Source of the DNA: a virus
Strand: one strand, 5' to 3'
Virus record (IMG/VR): IMGVR_UViG_3300030580_000016
Length of the DNA: 48,115 nucleotides
In this document: positions 15,839 to 40,144 of the stretch, one piece after another
How the letters are laid out: each line of letters starts with the position of its first letter
Position numbering within the stretch: position 1 is the first letter of the stretch
The notes under the pieces: generated by a model
Seen by the model: only the letters and a program-made list of their open reading frames with translations
Databases searched by the model: none
Told to the model about the DNA's origin: nothing
Program-made: the position numbers and the translations under genes

Positions 15839-15839
15839 T

Positions 15840-17647: not shown

Positions 17648-17652
17648 TCCTT

Positions 17653-18264: not shown

Positions 18265-18265
18265 T

Positions 18266-18634: not shown

Positions 18635-18638
18635 AACT

Positions 18639-19972: not shown

Positions 19973-19976
19973 TCAA

Positions 19977-20108: not shown

Positions 20109-20120
20109 GCGAGAGCTAAA

Positions 20121-20903: not shown

Positions 20904-20967
20904 TTACCACCGTAGTAAATGATTCATAGATTCTAAAAACTAACTAAATCGAAAAGAGGATACAAAG

Positions 20968-21468: not shown

Positions 21469-21478
21469 TTACTAACAA

Positions 21479-21500
21479 GGGGCGGCTAGTACAGCGCCCC
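21479..21500 (+). terminator. GC hairpin after the SSB-like gene (weak terminator candidate)
   Basis: GGGGCG / CGCCCC 6-bp stem with a 10-nt loop. No strong T-run. Confidence 0.3.
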
Positions 21501-21535
21501 ATTAACTCTTTCTAAAGGAAAAGGAGAATTAGCAA

Positions 21536-21667
21536 ATGGTATTCGAAAACGACGAGGAAATTCTAGACGCAGACTTCCAGGATATTTATGACGAAGATGA
21601 AGATGAAAGCGAAGAAGACGAGGACGAAGATGCCGACGACGAATCCGAATACGAAGACGAAGATTAA
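21536..21667 (+). CDS. Hyper-acidic 43-aa peptide
   Basis: AAGGAG 8 nt upstream of ATG 21536. MVFENDEEILDADFQDIYDEDEDESEEDEDEDADDESEYEDED has 28 of 43 residues Asp/Glu and no basic residue. Confidence 0.6.
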   Translation: MVFENDEEILDADFQDIYDEDEDESEEDEDEDADDESEYEDED

Positions 21668-21707
21668 ACTTAACAAAGTAGGAATTAACGCGCTGGAGTA
21701 TCGGGGC

Positions 21708-21857
21708 ATGTCAGATAATACTATGCTGATGATCCTAAACCAAGACGGCGACCAGCCAATTGTAACTCGGCGCGCTATTAGGTGGCTCTGCATTCAAGTA
21801 CTAGGACAGTATGGTTATGAGTTTGAGGTAGATGATAATGCCACTTCTAGGAAGTAA
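21708..21857 (+). CDS. Possible small ORF (49 aa, MSDNTMLMILNQDGDQPIV...)
   Basis: GGAG 10 nt upstream. It is the C-terminal part of track ORF 21588..21857. Confidence 0.45.
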   Translation: MSDNTMLMILNQDGDQPIVTRRAIRWLCIQVLGQYGYEFEVDDNATSRK

Positions 21858-24517: not shown

Positions 24518-26071
24518 ATGCAGAAGAACAGAATAAGCATGGAATACTTGCACGCGCTACAAGCGGTATACTACCAAATAGATCGACGCGGTATAGTAGT
24601 AGACAAGCAGAGGCTACGAGATGCATCACACTATATTGATACAGACATTAATCGTCAATGCGCTATTGTCAGTAGTATCTGGAACATACCTTGCTACATC
24701 GGAGCCGCAAACAAACCGGAAGCTAAACTTGGGAGTAGTATTAATCTTAACAGCAGCAGCGGTGATAATACCCCTCTCGCACACTTAAAGCGGATGGGAT
24801 TTACAATACCAAAGACAAGTGGGAGGGATGAGGATGGAAACTACATATCAAAAGAATCTCTTGCGGAACTTACCCTGCAAAAGATATATGCAACAAATCA
24901 ATTTAACGTCCCGGGAGGAGATCCAGCAATTAGGGCGCTTCTTAGAATACGTGAACTTGGAACTCTCCGAGCGCGCTACATTAATGCAAACCTCTATCGT
25001 TCAGGAGGGTTCGAGTTATTTCTTACAAATTATAATTGCGCAGGAACAGTTACAGGACGCAGGGGAAGCCGCAAACATTCTTTCGGTTTTGGGGGGAATG
25101 CACAAAATTTTCCAAAGCATGGAGAGCTTGCTAAGATATTTCGTAGATGCTTAGTAGCCCGCCCCGGTAAAATCCTACTAATGGTAGACCAGATGCAAGC
25201 CGAGGACTGGCCTACTAGCGCACTAGCTAATAACACGGAGGCACTTGATGACTTACGTTCTGGTATTGATAGGCATAGGAAGTTGGGTTGCCTTATATTT
25301 GATATCCCCTGGGACCACTATACAGACTCTCAGTGGAAAGAATCTATTGAGCGATTCCTTGGCAAGAAAACTAGACACGCTAATAACTATGGTATGCGTG
25401 GCGGTACTATGTCTGACTCACTTGCTAAGGAAGGCTATTCACTAACTCCCCAACAATGCACCAACATCCTCACGAAAGTAAACCAAGTTGACCCCTCCGT
25501 AGACGGAGTATTTCACAAATACATAAAGGACTGCTTATATGCGAATCGAACGCTCCGGACACCGTTTGGACGTGAACGTATCTTCTTCGGCCTCCGAGGT
25601 GGTGAAACAGGCTCGAATAATAAAATCTTCAACGAAGCTTACAGCTACATTCCTCAATCTACAGTTGGCGATAATAACGGATTTGCAGTCTATGAACTTG
25701 AAACCGGAAATGACTCCACACGAGGTAAAATTATTCAAGAATGCCATGACTCAATCGTTCAGGAGATTGACGATTCTGTTGAATCTATCTGGAACTTTAT
25801 GCAAGTCACAAAAGCGGCGTATTCTCGTAGAATCGTATTCCACAATGGGATTGAAGTTGAAATCCCAGTCGAAGGAGAAATTGCCTTTGACTTCTACAAC
25901 ACAGTAACTATTAAAGCTAGGAATGGCTCCAAAAAGCTGGAAGACATTACCTATCAAGATGTGCAAGCGGCTTACTACAAGTTAAAAGAGAATCAAGAAA
26001 AGGAGCGCCAGTCAGATGCCGCCACGCAAACTCAGCATGAACTGGATCAGCAGCTATGCGGCGGCGCTTGA
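24518..26071 (+). CDS. DNA polymerase A, polymerase-domain gene (517 aa)
   Basis: Starts at the exo/pol boundary (EYLHALQAVYYQIDRRGIVVDKQRL). Motif A LLMVDQMQAED, motif B KKTRHANNYGMRGG, motif C QECHDSIVQE. Confidence 0.85.
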   Translation: MQKNRISMEYLHALQAVYYQIDRRGIVVDKQRLRDASHYIDTDINRQCAIVSSIWNIPCYIGAANKPEAKLGSSINLNSSSGDNTPLAHLKRMGFTIPKTSGRDEDGNYISKESLAELTLQKIYATNQFNVPGGDPAIRALLRIRELGTLRARYINANLYRSGGFELFLTNYNCAGTVTGRRGSRKHSFGFGGNAQNFPKHGELAKIFRRCLVARPGKILLMVDQMQAEDWPTSALANNTEALDDLRSGIDRHRKLGCLIFDIPWDHYTDSQWKESIERFLGKKTRHANNYGMRGGTMSDSLAKEGYSLTPQQCTNILTKVNQVDPSVDGVFHKYIKDCLYANRTLRTPFGRERIFFGLRGGETGSNNKIFNEAYSYIPQSTVGDNNGFAVYELETGNDSTRGKIIQECHDSIVQEIDDSVESIWNFMQVTKAAYSRRIVFHNGIEVEIPVEGEIAFDFYNTVTIKARNGSKKLEDITYQDVQAAYYKLKENQEKERQSDAATQTQHELDQQLCGGA

Positions 26072-27248: not shown

Positions 27249-27667
27249 GGATGCGGAGAGGAAGCCCATTAGAGAATTACTGGATAGTACTTGAAAATAG
27301 TTGTTGGGAGTGGCAAGGCTCTAAGTGCAAACGTGGCTATGGTAGATATCGAGTTGGCAGTACCATAAAACAAGCGCACAGAGTTGTGTATGAAAAATAC
27401 AAGAAGAAGAAGATAGAATCTGGGCTGGAACTAGACCACAAATGTAGAAACCGCGCTTGTGTGAACCCTGACCATGTAGAAGAATTGACACATCTAGAAA
27501 ATGTTTTAGTTGGTGAAACTACAAAGTTAAAAGAATTTGAAGTAAAACTTATTAGGGATCTATGGGAACATGGTAAAGTTTCTCAGGGAGAACTGGCTAT
27601 TAAGTTTAAAGTAAGTCAATCAAATATCTCTGATATTATAACCAGAAAGACTTGGAGAAATATATAA
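27245..27667 (+). CDS. HNH homing-type endonuclease (140 aa)
   Basis: CWEWQGSK...GYGRY...AHRVVYE...LDHKCRNRACVNPDHVE...HLEN is the classic phage HNH_3 pattern. C-terminal HTH-like tail. Confidence 0.85.
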   Translation: MRMRRGSPLENYWIVLENSCWEWQGSKCKRGYGRYRVGSTIKQAHRVVYEKYKKKKIESGLELDHKCRNRACVNPDHVEELTHLENVLVGETTKLKEFEVKLIRDLWEHGKVSQGELAIKFKVSQSNISDIITRKTWRNI

Positions 27668-28248
27668 TGAGTTTCAATGAGCAAGGCCCAGAGCTAGTAG
27701 ACCGTCCGTCCAAACCCCTTGAAGTATCACTGGAAGTTGAAAACGTAATCTTCGTAGTCGGTGGTAAATTCGGACTCGAAGCAGTTGAGGATAAAATTCT
27801 TATTCTTATTGACAAATACAAGAGCGGCTACGAGTGCCATGATTGTGATGGTACTGGAGTTTTCAATAGCTGCGACTGCACAAAGAAAGGAACCTTCGGG
27901 ATTAAAGAAAATGGAAAAACCTGCACCTTCCGAGAAGCTTGCGCCAAACAAACCGTCGGCACAAAATGCCTACGATGCAATGGTACAGGATCAACGCTTA
28001 TTGTGCCAGAGAATACGCGAGCAATCCCTACGTCTGGAGTTATCGTTAGCTGCGGCCCGAAAGTCAAGACGAGAAGAATTGGAGAGCGTGTGCTCTTTGG
28101 TGCTCACACAGGCTATTACCTTCCCTTCAAGGGAAACGCTAAAATTAGATGTATGAGAGAGGACGAGCCACTCTGCAAAATCCTAGCAGTAGAAACCGGC
28201 CCGGTTAGTTTGGACGACTTTCTTAGTATCGAGGAGATGCAATCGTGA
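27667..28248 (+). CDS. GroES (Cpn10)-like co-chaperonin with inserted DnaJ-type zinc finger (193 aa)
   Basis: GGAG 9 nt upstream. GroES-like ends (AVEDKILILIDKYK ... GVIVSCGPKV..IGERVLFGAHTGYYLPF...IRCMREDEPLCKI) bracket CHDCDGTG...CDC...C..REAC...CLRCNGTG. Confidence 0.65.
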   Translation: MSFNEQGPELVDRPSKPLEVSLEVENVIFVVGGKFGLEAVEDKILILIDKYKSGYECHDCDGTGVFNSCDCTKKGTFGIKENGKTCTFREACAKQTVGTKCLRCNGTGSTLIVPENTRAIPTSGVIVSCGPKVKTRRIGERVLFGAHTGYYLPFKGNAKIRCMREDEPLCKILAVETGPVSLDDFLSIEEMQS

Positions 28249-28518: not shown

Positions 28519-31500
28519 CTAGTTAATCTGCCAACATACATTGCTAGTATCTACCGCGAGCGCCGCAAGTGCCGTGTAGGAGTTAATCACGAATGATGTT
28601 CCCACCGAAATTGTACCTACTGACAATGTGCCGATTGCTGTACTAGCGTTCAGGCCGCAGTTAGTAAGTTTATATCTACACGCCGTTCCCGGAGTACAAG
28701 CAGCCGCTGTAGATACAGTAACAGTCCCCGCAGCGAGAGTTGCCACCCCACCTACTCCAGCACTAGTAGCAGTAGCCGCATTACCTCCGATACTAAGATT
28801 AGCAACCGGAGTCGTAGAAGTAACAGCAAACGGAGCAGTACCAGTTGCGACGGTCGATGTAAAGATAAACGGAGTAGTAGCCCCAGTCGGATTAATAACC
28901 AGCGGTGTCACATATGTAGTAGCCCCGCCCCCAGTATTAACTTGGAACTGTAAACTACCAGCCGAACCTGAGCCAGTAAGAGATACACCGCATGTCCGTC
29001 CGTAAGACGAGTTATACGCGCCCACTCCTGAAGCTAATAGAAAATCATACCTAGTACAAGGCCCAGTATTAATACCACCAAACCGCAAACCAGCCAACAT
29101 TACATCTTGGTTTGCAGAACTTGCTGTTGTGTAAGCCATAATAATAGGAGCAGTCCATGCAATGCCACTACCAACTCCTAGTATCCCGGTAGTTGGATCG
29201 TTGAACAGCGAAGTAATTATCCCATTAGTACCTGGAGTGCTTTTAAAGATGTTATATCTAAACTGCAATCCATGCACACACGGAGGGTCAATAGTAGTAG
29301 AACTCAGTGATTCAATACCACAATTTACTGTTATAATATTACCACCAGCTAGCGCATTATTGGTTGGTATAATAGGAGGAGAAGCTAGATTTAGTGCAGT
29401 ACTTACCTGACCTACTACATCTCTCCAGATTGGGGGGATTACTAAGTAATCAGTAGGAAGTATTCTGTTATAGTTATTAGCAAAACTACCATAATAGTGT
29501 GAGGTTGGTTCCTCGTTCTGAGTAGATTTAATAGCCGCTCCAGAGCCTACCCCCATTGTTCTCTCCGCTATCATAGGCCCAGTTCTACCATCCAACGAGT
29601 GCAGCGCGTTGCCAAAGTAGTTATACTGCCCACTTACTCCTTGCCCATTCCACCAATCAGGAATCATTACATTATCTGTAGTGCTCCATGCAGATGTATT
29701 AAACGGCATCGCAGTGAATTTACCATCTGATACTGTACCTACAGGCTGTGATGGGTCTTCGCTCTTATAAACCATCGCTACTGGATAAATCCCAAATGGT
29801 GTAGGAAAGAATGAAGCCACATTAAACGTAGGAGTCGCCGGACAACCAGAACCTCCTGATACTATCGTAGCTGTGTAAGGATCAAGTGAACTACTAGCTA
29901 CAGCAGTTCCAACTGCTTGAATAACAGGAGCTACAGTACATCCAGATACAGTAATAATAGGAGCCGGGAGTTTAAACGGATGGCCACTGCCAGAAGTACT
30001 AGTGTTGGATGAGTAATCATTCGCATTAGTAGTTATACTAGTCAGTACTCCACTTGTCACTACTGGAGCACTAATAACAAGCGCAATCTTGGGAGTATTA
30101 ACCGCAGGTAATAGAGTTCTGAGATTATTATTACTAGACCCCTCCGGATTTGTATATACATTCACCAGATCCCCAGCAAGGCTTTGTACAATAGGATAGC
30201 ACAATCGTTGCTGCGCGGTTTGGTTACTAACACCATTTGAATTAGTTCCAATCGGAATGATATCAATATCAGCCCCGATGCAATACCCCACTGCGCCGCC
30301 GAAATTAACAGTAGCTCCTACAGCATGGGCACTCCTAAAGAAAGCTGTGAAGTGAGTCCCATCTACAACCGAAATCACTTGCGTATACTCTATCTGATAA
30401 TCCCCAGCGGCGATAAATAAAATAGTCCCGGCTGACATACCAGCCGTACTCGCTACTGTAGCGCAGAATCCTTGCAAAGCTCCTGTAGTAGTATTGTAGT
30501 TAGTATTCTCGCCCGGTATTCCTACCCCTTGGTAAGTGGTCATAAAACCATCAACACCACCAGCATTCGGACCGGTTATTGGGAATAAAGAAGCAGTTCT
30601 AGTCTGAGAACCGCAACTTCCGGTATAGACATTATTATCAACAGCAGCAGTCAGAGTAGTCTGTGTGGATACTCCGAACTGTGTCGTGATCCCAGCACTT
30701 CCATCCCCCTGAAAAAACGAAAACAAAGGATTGGTAGCCGTGCCAATAGATGCAATGTTACCGGGAGATACGAATTTCTTCGTAACATCCATTACGAAGG
30801 CTTTTTCATAGAACGCTAACGAGTTCCCAGTCCCCGCTGTTACAGTAAGAGGTATCCCACCTTGAGTATCCGGCGCGCCAATTACAGTCAGTGTTCCGCC
30901 AGCTACGTCATTGTTATTGGATACAAAATGCCTCGGCCACTCATTACCCTCGTCCTCATTCCTAGAAACCCCACGACCTACAATAGTCATGGTCTCTCCT
31001 ACGCAATCCCCAACACCTCCACAATTACCGTTGATTGCAAACATCCCACCGCCCTGTTCGGGAGCGAGAGTTTTAGCGGTTAATCCAAGCACGCCAAAAT
31101 TGCCGAGTACCGTATTTGTATTATCAGTGCCGCTATTAAGATTAAGCAGCAGTGACATACCGCTGTATGTTCCAGAACCTCCAAGTCTTCTATTGATTGC
31201 CTGCGTAACATTCCAAGGAATCTGCACCGGCTGAGGCGGGTTACTAGTTCTAGACATACCACTCACAACTGCTGTGGCACCACCAGTGCTGAGGGTAATA
31301 GCGGGAGGCGCATTGTATAACCCGCCTCCTTGGTTAGTAAGTGTGACTGAGACTACAGCAGTGCCACCTGCATTTAGCACAGCCACCCCAGTAGCGGTTG
31401 TGCCGTTAGAAGGAGCCGCGGAGAAGGTAACAGTAGGCGGTGTGCCGGTATAAGTCCCGCCATTAGTAACAGTAACAGACTGTACAGCACCAGAGGTAGC

Positions 31501-32238
31501 GAAATGCTGTGCGAAGTCAACATTAGTAGCAGTCGCTGCTGTTAGTCCAAGAGCTAGTATCGCATTATTTGGCTTAACACTAACCGCAGTTTCATTCCCA
31601 GCGCCATCAGTAGTTGCAGCCGTATCACCAGATACAGAAGCTACAACACCCGGAGTTTGGTAGTATGTTTTCTGGAATTGTGGAGCCGCTACAATAGTAC
31701 CGCCACCACTCTGAGGTACTGTCCAGATAGTACCATTCCAAGTATGCGTCAATCCATCGGTTACGTTAAAATACGCGCTGCCTATTCCAGCAATGGGGAT
31801 AACCTCAACATCCAGATAACCATAAGCTGCGGGGCCGCTATTAAACCGAGGTGCGGTTATAGAAGCATTTATCACAGTATTAAACTGACTCGAACTAGTA
31901 ACCGGGATAATAAACGAATTACAAGCAGCGATAGTATGCGAACAAACACTCACCGAGTACATAGCTCCCGAAGGAGTAATAGTAGCGGTATTAAAGAAGT
32001 GAGTAGTATCAGTAAGCACTCCGCTCGCGCTAAGCGACCCCCCAAAACTAGCAGTAGGAACAGGCGTTCCATTAAAGAACGCCTGACCACTAGGTGCGAA
32101 TAAACTAGCACTCCAAGTCCCGTTATTCCAAGCCTGCCCATCCGAATCTACTACCGTAGCTGTTACACTAGTAACTTGTGCCTCGGTATTCACAACCCCG
32201 AGGCATAGGATAAATCCAAGTAGCACTTTTTTAAACAT
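28519..32238 (-). CDS. Tail-fibre-like giant protein with Sec-type N-terminal signal peptide (1239 aa)
   Basis: AGGTGA RBS. N-terminus MFKKVLLGFILCLGVVNTEA/QV. Contains the fibre-type repeat VTVTNGGTYTGTPPTVTFS...VTLTNQGGGLYNAPPAITLS. Cys-containing C-terminal ~70 aa. Confidence 0.8.
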   Translation of the reverse strand: MFKKVLLGFILCLGVVNTEAQVTSVTATVVDSDGQAWNNGTWSASLFAPSGQAFFNGTPVPTASFGGSLSASGVLTDTTHFFNTATITPSGAMYSVSVCSHTIAACNSFIIPVTSSSQFNTVINASITAPRFNSGPAAYGYLDVEVIPIAGIGSAYFNVTDGLTHTWNGTIWTVPQSGGGTIVAAPQFQKTYYQTPGVVASVSGDTAATTDGAGNETAVSVKPNNAILALGLTAATATNVDFAQHFATSGAVQSVTVTNGGTYTGTPPTVTFSAAPSNGTTATGVAVLNAGGTAVVSVTLTNQGGGLYNAPPAITLSTGGATAVVSGMSRTSNPPQPVQIPWNVTQAINRRLGGSGTYSGMSLLLNLNSGTDNTNTVLGNFGVLGLTAKTLAPEQGGGMFAINGNCGGVGDCVGETMTIVGRGVSRNEDEGNEWPRHFVSNNNDVAGGTLTVIGAPDTQGGIPLTVTAGTGNSLAFYEKAFVMDVTKKFVSPGNIASIGTATNPLFSFFQGDGSAGITTQFGVSTQTTLTAAVDNNVYTGSCGSQTRTASLFPITGPNAGGVDGFMTTYQGVGIPGENTNYNTTTGALQGFCATVASTAGMSAGTILFIAAGDYQIEYTQVISVVDGTHFTAFFRSAHAVGATVNFGGAVGYCIGADIDIIPIGTNSNGVSNQTAQQRLCYPIVQSLAGDLVNVYTNPEGSSNNNLRTLLPAVNTPKIALVISAPVVTSGVLTSITTNANDYSSNTSTSGSGHPFKLPAPIITVSGCTVAPVIQAVGTAVASSSLDPYTATIVSGGSGCPATPTFNVASFFPTPFGIYPVAMVYKSEDPSQPVGTVSDGKFTAMPFNTSAWSTTDNVMIPDWWNGQGVSGQYNYFGNALHSLDGRTGPMIAERTMGVGSGAAIKSTQNEEPTSHYYGSFANNYNRILPTDYLVIPPIWRDVVGQVSTALNLASPPIIPTNNALAGGNIITVNCGIESLSSTTIDPPCVHGLQFRYNIFKSTPGTNGIITSLFNDPTTGILGVGSGIAWTAPIIMAYTTASSANQDVMLAGLRFGGINTGPCTRYDFLLASGVGAYNSSYGRTCGVSLTGSGSAGSLQFQVNTGGGATTYVTPLVINPTGATTPFIFTSTVATGTAPFAVTSTTPVANLSIGGNAATATSAGVGGVATLAAGTVTVSTAAACTPGTACRYKLTNCGLNASTAIGTLSVGTISVGTSFVINSYTALAALAVDTSNVCWQIN

Positions 32239-32265
32239 TATAAATTCACCTATTATCTGAAGTAA

Positions 32266-34446
32266 CTAGTTAACAGAACAAGAAACTCCGTAAGTAGCTC
32301 CAGCCACTGCGCCGTGGCTAATAGCAACACCGCCAGTGCTTACAGTGTAGAACGTGAATGCCGCATCAATTGAGTTGGCCCGAGTGACTGAGCAAGTACT
32401 AATAGGTGTGACAAAAGAACAAGAAAGCGCATCCATAGCTGCCGTTGTAGTTGTTATAGTTCCACAACTCTTCATCACTAGTGGGCCATCACTTAGGGCT
32501 AACGTGGTGATCTGAACCCCGCCAATGGCATAAGGCCCATGTCCAATATTAAACATACTATTATCATCGAAATCAACAGTAGCTCCGGCACTTGATAGAA
32601 AATGTAGTCCAGTTCCACCAACAGTTGAAGCCGCCCAAGTAGAACCTGCGCCTTGGCCAATCCATTCTATCTCTCCTCCGCCTCCTGTCGTTCCAACAAT
32701 TATTCCACTAGTGAATAATGCTGTAGTTGCTGTGACAGTAAGTCCGTTGAATGCACTAGCATTAAGTAGAGTATTGTTTATATCTCCCTGACTGTCCGGT
32801 CCGGGAGTACTTGTTGCCATATTTGTGGGTGAGACAGTCCAGTTATTACTAGAGAATGGCATTACTGTTACATCGATCAATGTACCCTGCAAATTTACAG
32901 AATAAGAAGTTGTGCCAAGTCCGTTCATCGTTCCGCCGCCGATGTAGACGTTATTCAGCCCATTGGTGGCTGTAATGTCAGCATAGCCGGCTGGGGCTAT
33001 GAGCATGTTATCGGTAAACGTCAGCCATGGCCATGCATTCGTTATGTAGATCGGCTCTTTGGAGGTCGTCTCGATGTTATTTAGACTGTATTGACCCTGC
33101 ACCGATCCAGAGAGATTCAGCACTAATCCATGCTCGAAATTTCCGCCGCCGTTTGAATTAACCTTATTGGATATCCACTTCCCTCCGCCAGAACTATCTT
33201 GATAGACTGCGGCACTGCCGACTGCTTCAGTTCGAGCACCAGCGGCAAATTCATTGCCGGACACAGTCCAATCTCCAGCATCGGAATCCACCGTATTCTG
33301 AATCCATAAGGCGCGCCGAACGGGATTATCCAGTTCGGAATCCTTCATCGTCCAACGTGACCCGACACCCACATGAATATCGTCGTAGAACCCATTTACC
33401 TGAACGTTCTGGAGATTTATTCGTTGGATATCAAGCGTCGAGTTAGTGAATACTGCCGCACCCGCAGTGGGCGTGGTCGATGCTGTGTTCGTCAGGGAGA
33501 TATTCTGGAATAATCCCGAGTTGGAGGTCACCGTGAAAAGAACAGCCGTTGAGCTACCGCAAACAACATTGGAACTAAAGGTTCCGAGTGTTTGATCTGT
33601 AACACCATCTCCCTCTAAAATAACAGGAACTCCAATAATGAACCCGCAATTAGCAGAAAAATAATTTCCAACGGGAAAATAGAGTCTACCAGCCCCTGCT
33701 GCGTCAAGAGCTACGATAGCTTTATTAATAGCCGCCGAATCATCAGTAACCCCATCCCCTACTGCCCCATAATATTTAACATTAAACGACTGCATTGTAG
33801 AAACAGGTTGGCCGTTTACTTCTAGAAAAGAACCTAGAGGTTGGATTATATTCTGAGTCCCGGCGGGGTTTGTAATAATAGGCAAACCACCTACCGTAGC
33901 AAAAGGTTCCCAACCTCCCGCAGTAAATACTAGCATTTCCTGTGAGGTAGTATCATACAACATACCACCCTGATTCTGTGGAGGTGCAGCGACTTGGTTT
34001 GTATTATAAACCTTCGAGATAGTAGTAGGTTGCGCAGGAAGTGGAGGCCACGCATTTGCTCCGGTGATAATAGGAACAATATTAAGAGTAGTGCCACTCA
34101 CCGCGACATTAACAACCGCGCATTGCAGGGAAGCATTAGGGCATACGCTAAAAAGCCAGGTACTGCCAACCGGCGAGATAGAGGTATTCGATGGAAGGAT
34201 GAGACTAAAATTTCCACCCGAATCAGAAGTCACAGTAGCAGGTAACTGGTTAAAAGCACCACCAGTCCATACGAAAGGAGGAGATTTACCGGGAGTATTT
34301 TGAAACACCGCAGTGATAGTAGCCGCACTCCAAGTATTTCCAAGCGGGTCTACAAGTGTCCCGCTGACTGTGGTAGATTGGGCGCTCGCGGTAATAGCAC
34401 CGAGGCCGAGGATAAGATACCAAATGTACTTCAACATGAGGGCCAC
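32266..34446 (-). CDS. Tailspike-like beta-helix (pectate-lyase-superfamily) protein with Sec-type signal peptide (726 aa; ATG at 34437 more likely than GTG at 34446)
   Basis: N-terminus MLKYIWYLILGLGAITASA/QS. FNVKYYGAVGDGVTDDSAAINKAIVALDAAGAGRLYFPVGNYF is the hallmark start of Pectate_lyase_3-type depolymerase domains. Confidence 0.8.
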   Translation of the reverse strand: MALMLKYIWYLILGLGAITASAQSTTVSGTLVDPLGNTWSAATITAVFQNTPGKSPPFVWTGGAFNQLPATVTSDSGGNFSLILPSNTSISPVGSTWLFSVCPNASLQCAVVNVAVSGTTLNIVPIITGANAWPPLPAQPTTISKVYNTNQVAAPPQNQGGMLYDTTSQEMLVFTAGGWEPFATVGGLPIITNPAGTQNIIQPLGSFLEVNGQPVSTMQSFNVKYYGAVGDGVTDDSAAINKAIVALDAAGAGRLYFPVGNYFSANCGFIIGVPVILEGDGVTDQTLGTFSSNVVCGSSTAVLFTVTSNSGLFQNISLTNTASTTPTAGAAVFTNSTLDIQRINLQNVQVNGFYDDIHVGVGSRWTMKDSELDNPVRRALWIQNTVDSDAGDWTVSGNEFAAGARTEAVGSAAVYQDSSGGGKWISNKVNSNGGGNFEHGLVLNLSGSVQGQYSLNNIETTSKEPIYITNAWPWLTFTDNMLIAPAGYADITATNGLNNVYIGGGTMNGLGTTSYSVNLQGTLIDVTVMPFSSNNWTVSPTNMATSTPGPDSQGDINNTLLNASAFNGLTVTATTALFTSGIIVGTTGGGGEIEWIGQGAGSTWAASTVGGTGLHFLSSAGATVDFDDNSMFNIGHGPYAIGGVQITTLALSDGPLVMKSCGTITTTTAAMDALSCSFVTPISTCSVTRANSIDAAFTFYTVSTGGVAISHGAVAGATYGVSCSVN

Positions 34447-34531
34447 CAGTAAGCGTCGTTATTAAATCCAAGGAAGTTATAGTCTAGGAACCAATGGGTC
34501 TCTATGCAGTGAAGGTCTTCATTCCCGTCTT

Positions 34532-35806
34532 TCATAGCAGTCCCATTCTACTAAGTTCATAGTATCTCTGAGTCGTGGTCTTCTGTAGGTCAGTGCGGAT
34601 TTGCATATTAGGGAGCTTGATATCCTCGATCTTTGCGTCTACTATCTCCCACGCATCTCCAATGCTATTTCCGTAGCCAAGTGGAACCGCGATAAATCCA
34701 CTATGCCCTGCTGTTACTAGCTCGCCCTTCTCCAACATAACATCATACATATAAGTAGAACCATACTGCCCAGGCCCTATTCCTTTTACCGGCACTCCCT
34801 GCGGATGCTTGCCCTTAATCTCGGTAGGATACGGCGGAATACTAAGACGAGTCCCGGCTCCGAACTCGCCACGCCAACTCTCATCCGGCACTTGCCCAGT
34901 TGCTACTTTCTGAAGCATCTCGCCAAAGTTTCCGCCGTACATATTAATAAGAGTCGCACTTGCATCATACCCAAAACGCGGAGTCCACTCTAGCCCGTAG
35001 AGTCCAGAATCAGTTGCAATAGTATTAAGATCAATCATTCCACAATAGCCGACGCTCTTTAGATAGTCCTTCATCTTGCCAAGACCATTCTTGAATAGCT
35101 CGCTGGACTCCCGCAAGTAGAACACCAGATTCCCGGCACAACCAGTATTCGGTCCGTGATTCCCGTTCATAAACTTCTTTTCTTCTAGGGTCACATTTAC
35201 TAAGTAGAAGTTATCCCCATTAAAATACCCCTCTACTGATACCTCGGTGCCCTTAATAAACTCCTGCAATACAAACGGAGCGCCCTTAGTTTTAGCATAA
35301 AGCTTATCAATACAAGCCAGCATATCTTCAGGACTACTGGCTACATAAGTAGTATCAGTATCATTCTCCTGCCCGCCATCTGGTTTGTATACGAACCTCT
35401 TATTCGTCTTCTTAATATGCGCCTTAGCAGCACCTAGCTCGGAAAATCTTTCATATGGCGGCACTTGTATTCCGCACTCCTCCATAGCTTCCAGACCAAA
35501 CATTCTATCATCTTCAACAGCACAATTAAAAGCGCCATCGCCAATAGTAGGACAGAGCGTTGCGCTATACTCTGCTTGACGCTCGCGCCCAGTGAGATCG
35601 AAGATACTAAGATCGTATTTCCCATAATTAGGATACCCTTTACTACCGCGCGCCCGGATATAAGGAGAAGGGACTATGCCTTTGAGAATGTTCTCGTAAT
35701 CTGGTTCTGTGAGGAATGTATCTACTTTGTGCCCTTCTTCGAGCAGCCGCAAAGCAAACCAAAACCCATAGCCAGTGTAACTATTAAGTGCAATCCTCAA
35801 TGCCAT
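34532..35806 (-). CDS. PurD-fold ATP-grasp ligase, diverged (424 aa)
   Basis: GGAG RBS. Collinear with GAR synthetase motifs: VYKPDG, LQEFIKGTEVS, GPNTGCAG, LEWTPRFGYDA. The PurD N-terminal GNGGREHA is replaced by NSYTGYGF. Confidence 0.75.
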   Translation of the reverse strand: MALRIALNSYTGYGFWFALRLLEEGHKVDTFLTEPDYENILKGIVPSPYIRARGSKGYPNYGKYDLSIFDLTGRERQAEYSATLCPTIGDGAFNCAVEDDRMFGLEAMEECGIQVPPYERFSELGAAKAHIKKTNKRFVYKPDGGQENDTDTTYVASSPEDMLACIDKLYAKTKGAPFVLQEFIKGTEVSVEGYFNGDNFYLVNVTLEEKKFMNGNHGPNTGCAGNLVFYLRESSELFKNGLGKMKDYLKSVGYCGMIDLNTIATDSGLYGLEWTPRFGYDASATLINMYGGNFGEMLQKVATGQVPDESWRGEFGAGTRLSIPPYPTEIKGKHPQGVPVKGIGPGQYGSTYMYDVMLEKGELVTAGHSGFIAVPLGYGNSIGDAWEIVDAKIEDIKLPNMQIRTDLQKTTTQRYYELSRMGLL

Positions 35807-35964: not shown

Positions 35965-37740
35965 TTAGTAGTTAAAGTCGTTGGCGTTTAGTGGATTGTT
36001 ACTATCAGGCTTTGGTCTAGTACGCCTGAATCTTTTTGGCTTGCCGCTTGCGCTATCGGCTTTGGTTGGCAGTATCTGATGAGAAGCAACACCACCAATC
36101 CCATACGGAGTAGTATCAGCCATCGCATCTCTAGCAAGCGGCTTCCACGCATCTGGATGCCTGTTATCAGTGTGCGCTGCTTTATATGCATCCTGCGCGC
36201 CCTGAATTAGCATGTTGGCATTCGGCCCCATAATCTGGCCTGCTAGGTTATTACGTGCCGCGCCTCTAGTATATCCAGTCGCTACTCCGAAACTTGCAAG
36301 ATGGCTCAGACTATCAATTGTATTCAGAGCTATTCGTGCGGCACTTGCAGCATTTTGTCTTCCAGCGAGCGCGTCATAAACAACACCTGCTGGAGTTGCT
36401 TCAACTCTATTAGCAAGATGCTTACCCGGATCATCCCAGTCGTGGCCTATTAGTAGCCGCTCTGCTTCGTAGAGCGTAGCCCCTAGTACTGGAAACGCCA
36501 TACTCATAAGCCCGATGTTCCTAGCTATTCCTACAAAGTCCCCTTGCTGGTACTGACGCTTGAATACATTCTGGATAAACCGTGCCTGATTAGCGGTGTA
36601 TGAATGGAATGCGCCCATTACTCTAAATATAGGACTGCTTTGTCCAAGTGCGGTACGTCCTTCTCCTTGATTCAAGAATGCCCGTACATTCGTCCCGTGG
36701 TAATAAGCCTTCTGTATATCACTAGCATCAAGCTGAAACTTCTGCGCTTGTATCTTCATAGGATCAAGCCCGAGTTCTCTTAGTACCGGGAGCGCCTTTT
36801 TACCATTCCCTCGTGCCAGATTCTGCACCGCCTCATCCGCTGCTAACTTACTCGCGTGCGCGCTCATCAGAAGAGTATTATATCTAACAGAAGACATTCC
36901 AGGTATGTACATGTTCTTGTGAATAAACTCACCAACACTACCGGGCATGTATTGCGAGATCTTACCAGCCTTAAAAGCCTCATGCTCCCTATATCCATTC
37001 ATTGTTAGTTCGCTAATAGCGTTCGTTGCAAGTACAGTAGCCTCGGCTCCCTTGCGTGTACTGGGGTTGAAAGTCTGGTCCAGTACTTTTGCGTAGGTCT
37101 GAAATCCGTCACTCATCAGTATATTCAGATTAGAAGTAAGATGCGGAATAGCGGCCTTGTACGCAAGTATCGACTGATGTACTCGCCCAGCCTTCTCGAT
37201 AAGATTAGGGTCACGATACTTAGAAGGCGGGGTCTGAAACCTAGTATCCTCGTTCCCCTTCCTCATATCTCGGTCGAACTTAGAAAGCCCCTCTGCATCC
37301 GGTGATTCCTTGAACAGAATATTAAGATGGTCCGCTAGAATATCCGCCCGATTCTTACCAACAGTCTTCTCAACATGCTTAAGCACCGCTTGTATTCCAG
37401 AACGATTCGGCCCAAATACATTCTCCGATGCTTGCTTCTGCGCTTCTTTAGTAATATCAGCCGCAGGCTTTGTACCGCCTGCTAGTTTAGCTTGCTCCAC
37501 GCCCTTAGAAGTAAGCTGGTTTACCTGCTCTTTATACGGCCCTTGGTAAGTATCCCACAGGTGCTTAGCAGCAGGGATATCTTGGAATGCGGCTTCCGGC
37601 CTAAACATACCATGATACAGTCCAGTCTCAACTCCCTCGGCTACTCTATTAACAGCCACTGGATTAGCAGCAACCTTACTTCCGATCTTTTCAACAGCAC
37701 CCTTAGCAAGATCCGCAACCGCGTTATAAAATCCGCCCAT
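35965..37740 (-). CDS. Large virion protein, internal/ejection-protein-like (591 aa)
   Basis: Long ORF in the tail/internal-protein block. No enzymatic motif recognised. Confidence 0.8.
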   Translation of the reverse strand: MGGFYNAVADLAKGAVEKIGSKVAANPVAVNRVAEGVETGLYHGMFRPEAAFQDIPAAKHLWDTYQGPYKEQVNQLTSKGVEQAKLAGGTKPAADITKEAQKQASENVFGPNRSGIQAVLKHVEKTVGKNRADILADHLNILFKESPDAEGLSKFDRDMRKGNEDTRFQTPPSKYRDPNLIEKAGRVHQSILAYKAAIPHLTSNLNILMSDGFQTYAKVLDQTFNPSTRKGAEATVLATNAISELTMNGYREHEAFKAGKISQYMPGSVGEFIHKNMYIPGMSSVRYNTLLMSAHASKLAADEAVQNLARGNGKKALPVLRELGLDPMKIQAQKFQLDASDIQKAYYHGTNVRAFLNQGEGRTALGQSSPIFRVMGAFHSYTANQARFIQNVFKRQYQQGDFVGIARNIGLMSMAFPVLGATLYEAERLLIGHDWDDPGKHLANRVEATPAGVVYDALAGRQNAASAARIALNTIDSLSHLASFGVATGYTRGAARNNLAGQIMGPNANMLIQGAQDAYKAAHTDNRHPDAWKPLARDAMADTTPYGIGGVASHQILPTKADSASGKPKRFRRTRPKPDSNNPLNANDFNY

Positions 37741-37750
37741 CGTATTACTC

Positions 37751-40144
37751 CTATTGGATTATTCCGCCGAGCTTCTTGTCTGCTACGTGCAGAAGGATAT
37801 TGTGAGAGGACTCAGCTAGTGTGCGCTTGAAAGTGATGTACTCATCAGGGGTTGTGATATTAGCAGAAGCCGCTTGTATTGCCTTCACAGTGGCATCAAA
37901 CCCCTTCAGTGCATGTGGATGTTGCTTCAACGCCGCTCTAGCAGGAGCCAACATAGCAGCATCCGTTTCCTCACTTAATTGATGCTGCCACTTTGTCCAA
38001 CTAAACGGTGCAGTAAGTTTCGAGCTTCGGAACATATTACCTTCAGAAGCCAGCCGTCCAGAGCCAGCAAGATTAGAAAGATGCACATGGAGCCAATCTG
38101 CTTCTTTCTGGATATCTTTAGTAGAGGCATTCTCGTAGCCTTTCAGTTGTTTGATTCTATATACGAGCGAGTTTGCCAAGCCCTCGGGGAGTTGTTTGCG
38201 GTTGCCGTAGTGATAGAGGAATTCGTGCGCGGCATTTTCAAAGTGAAGTCTATTACCGCCAGCGTCTCGAAGAAGTTTCTTGAACTTAATAAGACCTTCC
38301 TTCGATCTATCACTAATAGCTTCTGCTACTTGAATCCGATTGCGAGGCGCTCTTAGGTATGCATTGGTATCTACCTTGTGCTGAGCGAATTGCTCAGGAC
38401 TAATACTAGTCCCCTTAGTCCGCTTCTCAGCTTTGTTCAGCTTCTTAGTAGCTCCCTCTACATTGGATATCCCGGTTTCTTTAGCGATAGCAGAGATGTT
38501 ATTCTCTGTAACCGCGCCGGGAATATCAACGCCGAGCTTCTCCAGACCCGCTGCGAAGTTATTGAATGCTGGACTAGCAATACGCGCCTTAGCAATATTC
38601 TGTGTGACTTCATCTTTGTGGAGTTCAGGAAGATGCACAGGTGCTTCTAGTGCGGCCTGATTTATCTGCTGCCAACGCTCTGCTAGTACCTCAAGCTTAT
38701 CCTTATCTTCCAGCCCCACTAGTGGCTTGCCGTACTTAGCCATAGCGATTGAGTTCTGAGATACCTTCTCGGCTTCGTGAAGTTTAGCCATTACTGGATC
38801 CATCTCATTACGCTTAGCTTCTGCGCGTCGTGCTAACTCCTCATACCCCTTCTGCTGCGTTTCACGGCTGCCATACGAATACACATTCATATCCGCATCT
38901 GTGAAATGTCCAGTAGTATCAGTCGCAGGGTGTACTATAATCCCATGTGTTAGTTCATGGTCCTTGCCAATAGTAAGGTCAGTTAGATTCCCCGGCTTCA
39001 TAAACCAATCATCAGCATGGTTCATTTCCGCGTGCGCGCTTTGTGCTACATCCTGCGCGAATGGAATCCCGCCCATCGCGATAGTATTAGCGGTCCACTT
39101 CTTAATCAGCGGCGCACTAGCTATCTTCTGAATTAGCTTCTGGCCAGTTTCGCTCTTAGCAAACTCCCCACCTACAGCACTAGCATACTTCCCTCCAATA
39201 GCCGCCGCTCCCTCAAACTCCGCAACTCCCTTAGCTTCATTAGCCGCTGTAGTTTTATTCCCGCCACTCTCACTAAGACTCGCCAAGTAGAAATCGCTCG
39301 CACTAATAATCCGCTTCGCTACGAACTTCCCCACCGGAGTAGAAGCAAGACGAGCGGTAAGAGGTAATACCTTCGCAGCAGCTTCCCCAGCGCGCGCCAC
39401 AGGAGCAACAGCGCCGATTGCTTCATAGAGTGGCAAAGTTGCAATAAGCTCTCCAGTAAGACCAGCAAGGCTCCCGATAACAGTATCCCGAGGATGAGTT
39501 TGAATCCAAAAGTCATCACTCTGGATTTTCGCACGCTGAGCATCTTCGTAGTTAGATACATTTCGCTGAATGCTCTTTTCTATGTTTGCACTCTTAGCAA
39601 GCAAGCCAGTATCATCTTTATGAGAGAAGTAACTATCCAATCCATGCATAGATGAAAAGGCTTTGTTAGTAACCTTAGCGCCAAATAGCGCAATTCCGTC
39701 CCACGCTTTCGAGGCGCCTACTACTAAGTCCTTCCCCATCTGGTCTTGACGATCTGTACTATAAGACTCACTCAGCTTCTGCTGCTTGCCAGCCGTGTGG
39801 ATATTATAATCCCTAATACTAGTATCACGGCCGGTAGCACCAACCCAAGTATTTTTATCCGGTACAGGAAGATGAAAGCCTGCATACGACTTAGGAACGT
39901 ATTTATCATAAATACTAGCCCTCACTTTCGCCTTATGCTCTTCAGGGAGCGCCTGATACTTAGGGTCGGCTTTTACATCCTCCAACCGCTTAGCAATAGC
40001 CGCTCCCCTACTTGCAAACGAAGGTAATGATAGAATCTTATTAGTGTCCGTAGTTGGCTTCGTCGTCGTCGCCGCCGGATTCGTCTGAGTCGTCGGAACC
40101 GACTGATTCGAGGTCGGCATCTCCAGCGGATTTATCGTTGCCAT
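37751..40144 (-). CDS. Large virion protein, internal/ejection-protein-like (797 aa)
   Basis: GGAG 7 nt upstream of ATG 40144 (MATINPLEMPTSNQ...). Overlaps the 3' end of the upstream gene by 104 nt. Confidence 0.8.
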   Translation of the reverse strand: MATINPLEMPTSNQSVPTTQTNPAATTTKPTTDTNKILSLPSFASRGAAIAKRLEDVKADPKYQALPEEHKAKVRASIYDKYVPKSYAGFHLPVPDKNTWVGATGRDTSIRDYNIHTAGKQQKLSESYSTDRQDQMGKDLVVGASKAWDGIALFGAKVTNKAFSSMHGLDSYFSHKDDTGLLAKSANIEKSIQRNVSNYEDAQRAKIQSDDFWIQTHPRDTVIGSLAGLTGELIATLPLYEAIGAVAPVARAGEAAAKVLPLTARLASTPVGKFVAKRIISASDFYLASLSESGGNKTTAANEAKGVAEFEGAAAIGGKYASAVGGEFAKSETGQKLIQKIASAPLIKKWTANTIAMGGIPFAQDVAQSAHAEMNHADDWFMKPGNLTDLTIGKDHELTHGIIVHPATDTTGHFTDADMNVYSYGSRETQQKGYEELARRAEAKRNEMDPVMAKLHEAEKVSQNSIAMAKYGKPLVGLEDKDKLEVLAERWQQINQAALEAPVHLPELHKDEVTQNIAKARIASPAFNNFAAGLEKLGVDIPGAVTENNISAIAKETGISNVEGATKKLNKAEKRTKGTSISPEQFAQHKVDTNAYLRAPRNRIQVAEAISDRSKEGLIKFKKLLRDAGGNRLHFENAAHEFLYHYGNRKQLPEGLANSLVYRIKQLKGYENASTKDIQKEADWLHVHLSNLAGSGRLASEGNMFRSSKLTAPFSWTKWQHQLSEETDAAMLAPARAALKQHPHALKGFDATVKAIQAASANITTPDEYITFKRTLAESSHNILLHVADKKLGGIIQ

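What the first reader, a model, noticed from the sequence alone, without database searches (positions are those of the whole stretch)
28519..34446. Both terminal fibre/tailspike genes begin with Sec-type signal peptides and share Cys-paired N- and C-terminal domains
Seen: both proteins start with a signal-peptide-like segment.
- The 726-aa beta-helix protein starts MLKYIWYLILGLGAITASA/QSTT.
- The 1239-aa fibre starts MFKKVLLGFILCLGVVNTEA/QVTS.
- Each has a basic n-region, a 12-residue hydrophobic core and a small-x-small cleavage-like site.
After that both have a homologous ~100-aa domain (VSGTLVDPLGNTW... / VTATVVDSDGQAW...) that resembles carboxypeptidase-regulatory-like beta-sandwiches. This domain contains a conserved Cys pair (CPNASLQC / CSHTIAAC).
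Both proteins end in a related ~70-aa domain with four Cys (…SCGT…SCSF…STCS…VSCSVN / …AACTPGTACRY…NCGL…NVCWQIN).
Established: tailed-phage virions assemble in the cytoplasm, and tail fibres normally lack export signals and disulfides.
Inference, three options:
1. They are exported, disulfide-bonded depolymerase/adhesin proteins that are not part of the virion and act on the host surface or on superinfection.
2. Fibres are added to particles outside the cytoplasm.
3. The hydrophobic N-termini are uncleaved anchors or docking helices.
Any of the three would be unusual. The central modules differ (pectate-lyase-type helix versus GGTYTGTPPTVTF-type repeats), which suggests module swapping between constant ends.
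Basis: partly seen in the sequence, partly recalled or inferred. Interest (0 to 1): 0.7.

Follow-up and report, generated by a model that had tools for sequence, protein, structure and literature searches.

The report
Phage tail fibres carrying secretion signals
Both host-recognition proteins of this uncultured soil phage, and thousands of their relatives, start with a typical bacterial export signal and hold paired cysteines, which suggests that the fibres fold outside the cytoplasm and join the virus late, a route not described for tailed phages.

Summary
The last two genes of the late operon are a 723-aa pectate-lyase-type tailspike and a 1239-aa fibre. Both begin with a canonical type-I signal peptide followed by Gln at +1.

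- **Family size:** a profile of the shared N-terminal domain, built without the signal peptide, finds 2881 protein clusters.
- **Signal peptide in the best 150:** all 136 members with an intact start have a signal-like presequence, and 133 have Gln at +1. The presequence itself is hypervariable.
- **Cysteine pair:** the pair in this domain is either fully present (142) or fully absent (11), never single.
- **Cysteine contrast:** the other virion proteins of the phage have no or almost no cysteine. The two fibres have 8 and 18.
- **Natural control:** a syntenic phage has both fibres starting exactly at the predicted mature N-terminus, with no signal peptide and almost no cysteine.
- **Cultured phages:** Acidobacteriota phages Tunturi_1 and Tunturi_5 show the same feature. 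Tunturi_4 does not.

Best reading: these are real Sec substrates that fold oxidatively in the periplasm and attach to particles at lysis. This is inferred, not shown.

The claimed homology of the two C-terminal domains is not supported. No report of the phenomenon was found.

The parts
28519..32238 (-). Fibre gene (1239 aa), last gene of the late operon
   Evidence: ORF. AGGTGA ribosome-binding site 8 nt upstream. Homologues P0070-P0076 are 52-58% identical over 66-76% of its length. Tunturi_5 gp337, annotated 'tail fiber protein', is 34% identical over residues 341-1020.
32179..32238 (-). Fibre signal peptide, residues 1-20: MFKKVLLGFILCLGVVNTEA, then Gln at +1
   Evidence: Basic n-region, 12-residue hydrophobic core, T-E-A at -3 to -1. 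All 10 fibre homologues have an equivalent presequence; my rule placed Gln at +1 in 9 of them, and P0074 has GQ/CGQ sites.
31843..32178 (-). Fibre N-terminal beta-sandwich domain, residues 21-132; Cys99-Cys106 lie at 31921-31944
   Evidence: Aligns with the spike N-domain. Family of 2881 clusters. Cys-pair covariation.
31240..31548 (-). Ig-like repeat region, residues 231-333 (GGTYTGTPPTVTFS-type)
   Evidence: PHROG 460 hit at 231-333, E 1.8e-5. Weak Pfam PF22544 Ig-like hit, E 0.033.
28849..31236 (-). Conserved fibre core, residues 335-1130, fold unknown; five invariant Cys pairs (406/412, 542/592, 767/799, 973/987, 1061/1083)
   Evidence: Alignment A2 invariant columns. Cys positions. The AlphaFold2 model failed, pLDDT 28.
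28525..28749 (-). Fibre C-terminal domain, residues 1164-1238, four Cys
   Evidence: PF24146 K1-lyase_C, E 3.7e-9, 37.4 bits against a cut-off of 27.
32266..34437 (-). Tailspike gene (723 aa from ATG 34437; an upstream in-frame GTG at 34446 would give 726 aa)
   Evidence: ORF. The identical 723-aa product is called on 23 contigs. Its start overlaps the stop of the upstream 34-aa ORF as ATGTTGA.
34381..34437 (-). Spike signal peptide, residues 1-19: MLKYIWYLILGLGAITASA, then Gln at +1
   Evidence: In alignment A1 this segment is hypervariable, while Ala19-Gln20 are invariant. AlphaFold2 models residues 3-12 as a helix ahead of the beta-sandwich that starts at residue 21 (low confidence).
34045..34380 (-). 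Spike N-terminal beta-sandwich domain, residues 20-131; Cys99-Cys106 lie at 34120-34143
   Evidence: Sub-threshold CarboxypepD_reg hit.
33793..34044 (-). Conserved neck, residues 132-215, shared with P0006, P0008 and P0010-P0012, which carry different distal modules
   Evidence: Alignment A1, 55-64% identity across the six full-length relatives. Distal parts differ.
33256..33786 (-). Start of the right-handed beta-helix (pectate-lyase / rhamnogalacturonase-like)
   Evidence: PF12708, E 2.8e-11. PHROG tail-spike families. PDB sequence hits to the AlgE4 epimerase and to beta-helix glycanases.
32269..32523 (-). Spike C-terminal domain, residues 639-723, four Cys
   Evidence: No Pfam hit. Related to the C-termini of P0075, P0076 and P0209. 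Not demonstrably related to the fibre C-terminus.
34431..34535 (-). Conserved 34-aa ORF, translationally coupled between the ATP-grasp gene and the spike gene
   Evidence: Counterpart in L013 (35 aa, same C-terminal 19 residues).
34532..35806 (-). ATP-grasp (PurD/GARS_A-like) gene, always found just upstream of the fibre genes in this lineage
   Evidence: PF01071, E 6.9e-13. Same position in L010, L013, L018 and L021.

Best explanation
The two genes encode the phage's receptor-binding proteins: a depolymerase-type tailspike and a long fibre that share one tail-anchoring N-terminal domain. Their N-termini are genuine, cleavable Sec / signal-peptidase-I signal peptides.

Proposed mechanism:
1. 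Late in infection the proteins are exported to the periplasm.
2. The signal peptide is removed and exposes Gln at +1, which probably cyclises to pyroglutamate.
3. The proteins fold with disulfide bonds in the oxidising periplasm.
4. They meet fibreless particles only when the inner membrane is breached at lysis, and dock through the N-domain.
5. A periplasmic or free fraction may also degrade the host's exopolysaccharide.

Shown here: the sequence features, their conservation, the link between signal peptide and cysteines, and the gene positions. Inferred: export, cleavage, disulfide formation and late attachment.
For: 1. **Canonical signal-peptide anatomy in both proteins.** No other large ORF of the window has it.

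2. **Selection acts on the signal function, not on the sequence.**
   - A profile built without the presequence finds 2881 clusters.
   - In the best 150, all 136 members with at least 14 residues before the domain have a signal-like presequence.
   - The presequence has a median length of 20 aa and a range of 16-53.
   - Position -1 is A/G/S/C in 134 of 136. Position +1 is Gln in 133 of 136.
   - The h-region itself is hypervariable.

3. **Gln at +1 goes with the cleavage site, not with one domain.** It follows the presequence in many unrelated mature N-termini: P0002-5, P0007, P0013, P0070-76, the L012 and L022 proteins, and the Tunturi gene products.

4. **A natural deletion marks the cleavage site.** In the syntenic phage L018 both fibres begin MATTHVTGTL / MPNTTVTAQL, exactly at the predicted mature N-terminus. 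The hydrophobic segment is therefore dispensable for docking.

5. **Cysteine evidence.**
   - The N-domain pair is gained or lost only together: 142 both, 11 neither, 0 single.
   - The fibre core has five invariant Cys pairs.
   - The mature Cys count is even in about 19 of 24 relatives.
   - Other virion proteins of the window (591, 801, 516, 237 and 260 aa) have 0 Cys, and portal and capsid have under 0.5%.
   - The same contrast holds in L021, L022 and Tunturi_1.
   - The signal-less fibres of L018 have 2 Cys in 655 aa and lack the N-domain pair.

6. **Receptor-binding role.**
   - They are the last genes of the tail module, after the SU10-type portal and adaptor genes.
   - The N-domain is conserved while the distal modules are swapped.
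   - In L016 the homologue directly follows the adaptor gene. In the sipho-like L012 it follows the large distal tail gene.
   - No other receptor-binding candidate turned up among the window proteins searched.

7. **Cultured phages show the same feature.** In Tunturi_1 (podovirus) and Tunturi_5 (myovirus), which infect Acidobacteriota, the tail fibre / tail spike / virion structural genes carry the same signal peptide plus Gln and are Cys-rich.

8. **A cellular relative is a secreted enzyme.** P0014, a homologue of the spike, carries a signal peptide and sits inside a Wzx/Wzy exopolysaccharide locus.
Against: - No experiment exists. No virion proteome, N-terminal sequence or export assay is available for any of these phages.
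- SignalP and DeepTMHMM could not be run. The signal-peptide call rests on my own rule-based scan.
- No tailed phage is known to attach fibres outside the cytoplasm. Assembly after dilution at lysis could be inefficient.
- Disulfides could form by air oxidation after release, so paired cysteines do not prove periplasmic folding.
- Tunturi_4, which infects the same host genus, has no signal peptide on its distal tail proteins. Export is therefore not imposed by the host.
- Only 2-3 signal-less members were found among the 150 examined, so the link between signal peptide and cysteines is qualitative.
- 8 members with a signal peptide also lack the N-domain Cys pair.
- The host of this particular phage is not identified. 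Its 46% GC is well below the 51-58% of the Tunturi phages.
Confidence: 0.5

Rival explanations
1. The proteins are exported but are not virion parts. They would be free or surface-bound depolymerases and adhesins. Possible roles are stripping exopolysaccharide from the infected cell and its neighbours, blocking superinfection, or stopping progeny from sticking to debris.
For: - The signal peptide looks genuine.
- The spike has a glycanase-type beta-helix.
- Its cellular homologue P0014 sits in an exopolysaccharide locus.
- P0072 is a fibre homologue in a 463-kb cellular contig with no phage tail genes next to it.
- P. gingivalis prophages encode non-structural proteins with a signal peptide and Gln at +1 (PMC10367356).
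Against: - The phage would then have no receptor-binding protein.
- The genes occupy the canonical fibre positions in three different genome types.
- A conserved N-domain with swapped distal modules, shared by two or more adjacent genes, is the hallmark of tail-anchored proteins.
- The signal-less versions in the syntenic phage L018 sit at the same position and cannot be secreted enzymes.
Confidence: 0.2
2. The hydrophobic N-terminus is not cleaved. It would act as a structural docking helix inside the tail, or as a temporary inner-membrane tether during cytoplasmic assembly.
For: - Tailed-phage assembly is cytoplasmic in every studied case (established knowledge).
- AlphaFold2 draws residues 3-12 as a helix (low confidence).
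Against: - A docking helix should conserve its sequence and length. Here the segment is hypervariable and 16-53 aa long, while -3/-1/+1 are conserved.
- The same domain works without it in the syntenic phage L018, starting exactly at the predicted cleavage site.
- An N-in signal anchor with a basic n-region would still put the bulk of the protein outside the cytoplasm.
- Near-universal Gln at +1 across unrelated mature domains has no rationale if there is no cleavage.
Confidence: 0.12
3. The signal peptides are inert relics that came along with enzyme modules captured from secreted host proteins, or they are gene-calling artefacts.
For: - The spike's beta-helix has a secreted cellular homologue.
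- Remote beta-helix homologues in other phages lack signal peptides.
Against: - The signal peptide is attached to the phage-specific anchor domains, not to the enzyme modules. It persists across 2881 clusters and many unrelated N-terminal domains.
- Ribosome-binding sites and translational coupling support the annotated starts.
- No in-frame alternative start follows the presequence.
Confidence: 0.03

Closest known systems
Podovirus tailspikes and fibres with a conserved N-terminal anchor and swapped distal modules (for example P22 tailspike, T7 gp17, the dual receptor-binding proteins of K1-5/G7C-type phages, SU10 fibres)
   Same: - Gene position at the end of the tail module.
- Beta-helix depolymerase domain (PF12708).
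- A shared N-terminal anchor on two adjacent genes.
- Extensive module exchange.
   Different: The known examples have no export signal and are made and attached in the cytoplasm (established knowledge). Here there is a cleavable-looking signal peptide, Gln at +1 and many conserved Cys pairs.
Bacteroidetes Q-rule for signal-peptidase-I substrates (Bochtler et al. 2018, PMC5837995), and Q-rule proteins of P. gingivalis prophages (Matrishin et al. 2023, PMC10367356)
   Same: Gln immediately after the predicted cleavage site in nearly all members.
   Different: - Strong Shine-Dalgarno use argues against a Bacteroidota host. This argument rests on my own knowledge.
- The only cultured relatives infect Acidobacteriota, a phylum not analysed in that paper.
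- The P. gingivalis phage proteins are of unknown function and were not described as fibres.
Phage proteins already known to use Sec: secreted and SAR endolysins, spanin lipoproteins, superinfection-exclusion lipoproteins, and the coat proteins of filamentous phages
   Same: A phage-encoded N-terminal signal uses the host Sec machinery.
   Different: Those proteins are lysis or exclusion factors, or belong to viruses that assemble at the membrane. None is a tail fibre of a tailed phage (established knowledge; nothing was found in literature).
Tunturi phages of Tunturiibacter (Demina et al. 2025, PMC11924767)
   Same: - Tunturi_5 gp337 shares the fibre core at 34% identity.
- Tunturi_1 gp12, 13, 14, 16, 17 and Tunturi_5 gp337-341 carry a signal peptide, almost all with Gln at +1. 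The larger ones are Cys-rich: 10-32 Cys in Tunturi_1, 19 in gp337.
   Different: - Different genomes and morphotypes.
- The window's N-domain is absent from all 50,697 deposited phage records.
- The paper never mentions signal peptides.
- Tunturi_4 lacks the feature.
K1 capsule lyase C-terminal domain (PF24146)
   Same: The fibre C-terminus matches above the curated threshold.
   Different: The spike C-terminus does not match, and the two C-termini are not demonstrably related.

Membership tests
Sec / signal-peptidase-I (type I) signal peptide | Positively charged n-region, a hydrophobic h-region of 7-15 residues, and a polar c-region with small residues at -3 and -1 | tested here: met
   Fibre: MFKK / VLLGFILCLGVV / NTEA|Q. 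Spike: MLK / YIWYLILGLGAIT / ASA|Q. In the family, 136 of 136 are signal-like and -1 is A/G/S/C in 134 of 136.
Sec / signal-peptidase-I (type I) signal peptide | Not a lipoprotein signal (no Cys at +1) and not a Tat signal (no twin arginine) | tested here: met
   Position +1 is Gln, and there is no RR motif in either n-region.
Sec / signal-peptidase-I (type I) signal peptide | Positive call by a trained predictor (SignalP, DeepTMHMM) | not testable with these tools
   No such predictor was available. Only my own rule-based scan was run.
Sec / signal-peptidase-I (type I) signal peptide | Export and cleavage shown experimentally | not testable with these tools
   Needs fusions, N-terminal sequencing or virion mass spectrometry.
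Phage receptor-binding protein (tailspike / tail fibre) | Encoded in the tail module next to the adaptor and nozzle genes | tested here: met
   SU10_portal and SU10_adaptor hits, with the two genes last in the late operon. Same synteny in L010, L013, L018 and L021.
Phage receptor-binding protein (tailspike / tail fibre) | Conserved N-terminal anchor joined to variable distal receptor-binding or depolymerase modules | tested here: met
   A1 and A3 alignments against divergent distal parts. PF12708 beta-helix in the spike.
Phage receptor-binding protein (tailspike / tail fibre) | Physically present in the virion | not testable with these tools
   No proteome exists. The Tunturi annotations come from prediction software, not from proteomics.
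Bacteroidetes Q-rule substrates | Gln at +1 of the signal-peptidase-I site | tested here: met
   133 of 136, plus many unrelated mature N-termini.
Bacteroidetes Q-rule substrates | Host belongs to Bacteroidota | tested here: inconclusive
   Most window genes have AGGAG-type ribosome-binding sites. The only cultured-phage relative infects Acidobacteriota. Two scans of species-representative genomes found nothing.
Type IX secretion cargo (signal peptide plus C-terminal sorting domain) | Recognisable C-terminal sorting domain | tested here: not met
   No Pfam or NCBIfam sorting-domain family matched either protein.
K1-lyase_C (PF24146) | Score above the curated threshold | tested here: met
   Fibre residues 1164-1238, 37.4 bits against 27. 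The spike has no hit, so this feature is not met for the spike.
CarboxypepD_reg (PF13620) | Score above the curated threshold | tested here: not met
   Spike N-domain scores 17.5 bits against a cut-off of 32.3, E 0.0055. The fold comparison was uninformative because the model had pLDDT 58.

The most novel reading that the evidence does not exclude
A large, uncultured lineage of SU10-like soil podophages, together with unrelated phages of Acidobacteriota, routes its receptor-binding proteins through the host Sec system. The fibres would fold oxidatively in the periplasm, gaining disulfides and an N-terminal pyroglutamate. They would be added to otherwise complete particles only at or after inner-membrane disruption. 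That would be a two-compartment assembly pathway not known for tailed phages. The periplasmic depolymerase might also dismantle the host's exopolysaccharide from within.
Probability: 0.45. Interest if true: 0.9.

Novelty: new variant of a known kind. Interest (0 to 1): 0.8.

Why it matters
Tail fibres decide host range, and textbook assembly of tailed phages is entirely cytoplasmic. If thousands of soil-phage fibres are Sec substrates, several things follow:

- **Assembly:** virion assembly can span two cell compartments.
- **Host dependence:** the host's Sec, signal-peptidase and Dsb systems become host factors for infectivity.
- **Annotation:** signal-peptide filters used to separate 'secreted' from 'structural' viral proteins, or to call auxiliary genes, would misclassify fibres in soil viromes.
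- **Expression:** recombinant production of such depolymerases would need periplasmic or oxidising conditions.
- **Evolution:** exported fibres could swap modules freely with the host's secreted glycanases.

The idea is directly testable, because cultured phage-host pairs with the same feature exist (Tunturi_1 and Tunturi_5 on Tunturiibacter).

Tried and rejected
- **Near-identical DNA in deposited phages:** none.
- **Tblastn of the N-domain against phage records:** none.
- **Two scans of species-representative genomes** (N-domain profile, fibre profile) to find prophages and so a host: no relatives.
- **tRNA scan** for host clues: none.
- **Cluster look-up** for source names: no names.
- **AlphaFold2 of spike residues 1-209:** pLDDT 58. 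The Foldseek search against PDB gave only generic Ig-like noise.
- **AlphaFold2 of the fibre core (796 aa):** pLDDT 28, unusable, so the core fold stays unknown. Disulfide distances could not be measured because coordinates are not returned.
- **PDB sequence search of the fibre:** nothing.
- **Alternative-start hypothesis** (a signal-less isoform from an internal start): rejected. There is no in-frame ATG/GTG/TTG just after either presequence.
- **Type IX cargo hypothesis:** rejected. No sorting-domain hit.
- **Bacteroidota host:** disfavoured by Shine-Dalgarno use.
- **'Signal peptide imposed by the host':** rejected. Tunturi_4 infects the same genus without it.
- **Homology of the two C-terminal domains:** not supported.
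- **Six literature searches** found no report of signal peptides on tail fibres. The phiCbK, phiB124-14, rumen-phage and Caulobacter N4-like papers that surfaced were irrelevant.

Full report
**1. What is in the window**

The 48-kb window is a complete or nearly complete genome of an uncultured podovirus-like phage.
- The plus-strand block holds replication genes: family-A DNA polymerase at 24518-26071, a DUF3987 primase/helicase-like gene, an FtsK-like ATPase and a PD-(D/E)XK nuclease.
- The minus-strand late operon holds the large terminase, an SU10-type portal, the major capsid protein, an SU10-type adaptor and several large proteins with no known family.
- It has no near DNA match among 50,697 deposited phage records.
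- The late operon ends with an ATP-grasp gene, a 34-aa ORF, and the two genes of the finding.
- The identical spike protein occurs on 23 metagenomic contigs of up to 49.5 kb.

**2. Checking the observation**

Both ORFs are as described.
- The fibre starts MFKKVLLGFILCLGVVNTEA|QVTS and has an AGGTGA ribosome-binding site.
- The spike most likely starts at ATG 34437, giving MLKYIWYLILGLGAITASA|QSTT. This start overlaps the stop of the upstream small ORF.
- Among 33 large ORFs only these two have a basic / hydrophobic / small-x-small N-terminus.
- Their first ~115 residues are homologous: 29% identity, E 2e-5.
- The Cys pair sits at residues 99/106 in both proteins.
- The spike has a PF12708 beta-helix. 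The fibre has a PF24146 C-terminal domain.

The claim that the two C-terminal domains are related fails. BLAST gives E 0.5, there is no Pfam hit for the spike C-terminus, and hhalign gives probability 0.1. The 'carboxypeptidase-regulatory-like' resemblance is only a sub-threshold hit.

**3. The feature is general and under selection**

All close, full-length homologues of the spike (P0002-P0014) begin with a signal-like presequence followed by Gln, and so do all ten homologues of the fibre apart from an ambiguous cleavage site in P0074. Remote beta-helix homologues from other phages (P0015-P0053) mostly do not, which serves as an internal control.

In the alignment of spike-type N-termini the mature domain is 66% identical per column. 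The presequence is unalignable apart from an invariant Ala-Gln junction.

I then built a profile of the N-domain that excludes the presequence and searched 1.84 billion representative proteins.
- It found 2881 clusters at E <= 1e-3 and 1631 at E <= 1e-10.
- In the best 150 the domain starts at residue 17-30 almost without exception.
- All 136 members with at least 14 preceding residues are signal-like.
- Position -1 is A/G/S/C in 134 of them and +1 is Gln in 133.
- Most of the other 14 are visibly truncated or start at alternative start codons.

Gln at +1 also follows the presequence on many unrelated mature N-termini. It therefore belongs to the cleavage site, not to one domain.

**4. The natural control**

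Two representatives (P0206, P0195) start MATTHVTGTL / MAMTHVTGTL. That is exactly the predicted mature N-terminus, with no presequence.
- P0206 lies in a 47-kb contig (L018) that is syntenic with the window: ATP-grasp, small gene, fibre 1, fibre 2.
- Its second fibre also lacks a presequence.
- The hydrophobic segment is therefore not needed for the domain's structural role. This argues against a docking helix.
- These signal-less fibres have lost the N-domain Cys pair and hold only 2 Cys in 655 aa.

**5. Cysteines**

- Across 153 family members the two N-domain cysteines are both present (142) or both absent (11), and never single.
- The fibre core has five invariant Cys pairs across eight sequences that are about 50% identical.
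- Mature Cys counts are even in about 19 of 24 relatives.
- The other virion proteins of the window have 0 Cys (591, 801, 516, 237 and 260 aa) or under 0.5% (portal, capsid). The spike and fibre have 8 and 18.
- The same split holds in L021, L022 and Tunturi_1.
- This is the pattern expected if only the signal-bearing proteins fold in an oxidising compartment. It does not prove that they do.

**6. Are they virion proteins?**

- They are the last genes of the tail module.
- The conserved N-domain and neck carry many different distal modules.
- Two to four adjacent genes share the N-domain.
- In a 70-kb relative the fibre homologue follows the adaptor directly.
- In a siphovirus-like contig a signal-bearing spike follows the large distal tail gene.
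- No other receptor-binding candidate turned up among the window proteins searched.
- Cellular homologues do exist. P0014 is a signal-bearing beta-helix protein inside a Wzi/Wza/Wzz/Wzx/Wzy exopolysaccharide locus. P0072 is a fibre-core protein next to a PEP-CTERM protein. Both point to module exchange with the host secretome.

**7. Host and cultured relatives**

- Most window genes have AGGAG-type ribosome-binding sites. This argues against a Bacteroidota host despite the Q-rule-like Gln. The Q-rule was defined for Bacteroidetes, and Acidobacteria were not analysed there (PMC5837995).
- The only deposited phage with a homologue is Tunturiibacter phage Tunturi_5, whose host is an Acidobacteriota. 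Its gp337 'tail fiber protein' is 34% identical to the fibre core.
- Tunturi_5 gp337-341 all begin with a signal peptide followed by Gln.
- In the podovirus Tunturi_1, gp12, 13, 14, 16 and 17 also carry signal peptides, four of them followed by Gln, and the four large ones hold 10-32 Cys. Portal, capsid and the other structural proteins do not.
- The siphovirus Tunturi_4 lacks the feature. It is therefore a phage strategy, not a host requirement.
- The paper describing these isolates never mentions signal peptides or tail fibres (PMC11924767).
- The host of the window phage itself remains unassigned. Relatives range from 38% to 54% GC.

**8. Explanation and rivals**

The best-supported reading is that the presequences are functional Sec / signal-peptidase-I signals on true receptor-binding proteins. 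This implies periplasmic, disulfide-assisted folding and attachment to particles at lysis. It is physically plausible, because tailspikes and fibres of model phages can be added to particles in vitro (established knowledge). I rate it 0.5.

Rivals:
- Exported, non-virion depolymerases or adhesins: 0.2.
- Uncleaved anchor or docking helix: 0.12.
- Inert relic or artefact: 0.03.

**9. Novelty**

Six full-text searches found no description of signal peptides on tail fibres. The nearest report is of P. gingivalis prophage proteins of unknown function that obey the Q-rule (PMC10367356).

The established part is a new variant of a known kind: receptor-binding proteins with export signals. If the inferred pathway is confirmed, it would be a new mode of tailed-phage assembly.

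Noticed in passing
window 34431-34535 (-): A 34-aa ORF (MKDGNEDLHCIETHWFLDYNFLGFNNDAYWWPSC) overlaps the ATP-grasp stop (ATGA) and the spike start (ATGTTGA). A 35-aa counterpart with the same last 19 residues sits at the same place in L013. Its function is unknown.
   Followed up: partly
window 34532-35806 (-); also L010, L013, L018, L021: A PurD/GARS_A-like ATP-grasp gene sits immediately upstream of the fibre genes in every syntenic phage, including the signal-less L018. Its role there is unexplained; it could modify or help assemble the fibres.
   Followed up: partly
window 35965-43087 (-): Five consecutive virion-module proteins (591, 801, 516, 237 and 260 aa) hold no cysteine at all. The same is true of the equivalent proteins in L018 and L021.
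   Followed up: yes
window 27652-28248 (+): A 198-aa ORF with 11 Cys includes two C-x-x-C-x-G-x-G motifs (CHDCDGTG, CLRCNGTG) of the kind found in DnaJ-type zinc fingers. It is convergent with the fibre gene and has no Pfam or PHROG hit.
   Followed up: partly
window 16201-17283 (+): An FtsK/SpoIIIE-family ATPase (PF01580, E 2e-30) lies in the early/replication block of a podovirus-like genome.
   Followed up: no
window 46161-46538 (-): A 125-aa protein matching an endolysin-domain PHROG (E 2e-14) lies right after the major capsid gene, inside the structural block.
   Followed up: no
L001 10001-12316 (840-kb cellular contig): P0014, a cellular homologue of the spike (39% identity), carries a signal peptide and lies between the flippase-like gene and the Wzy polymerase gene of an exopolysaccharide locus. 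Two neighbouring exported proteins (Wzi, Wza) also have Gln after a likely cleavage site.
   Followed up: partly
L015 10001-13276 (463-kb cellular contig): P0072, a fibre-core homologue, stands alone in a cellular contig next to a PEP-CTERM protein, with an integrase 9 kb away. It may be a captured or remnant fibre gene.
   Followed up: no
C-termini of P0002-5, P0007, P0011, P0072-74: A recurrent ~25-aa C-terminal module ends in ...G(L/I)(V/I)TGC, with a second Cys 14-19 residues upstream. It is found on fibres with different cores and looks like a mobile, disulfide-closed terminal hairpin.
   Followed up: no
L012 17276-19762 and 20106-21944: A siphovirus-like contig encodes, besides the signal-bearing spike P0005, a signal-bearing 828-aa GDSL-lipase protein and a 1229-aa protein. 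These two share yet another N-terminal domain.
   Followed up: partly
L020 (Tunturi_4, PP885687) 15159-22480: The distal tail proteins of this Acidobacteriota siphovirus have no signal peptide and few cysteines, unlike those of Tunturi_1 and Tunturi_5, which infect the same host genus.
   Followed up: yes
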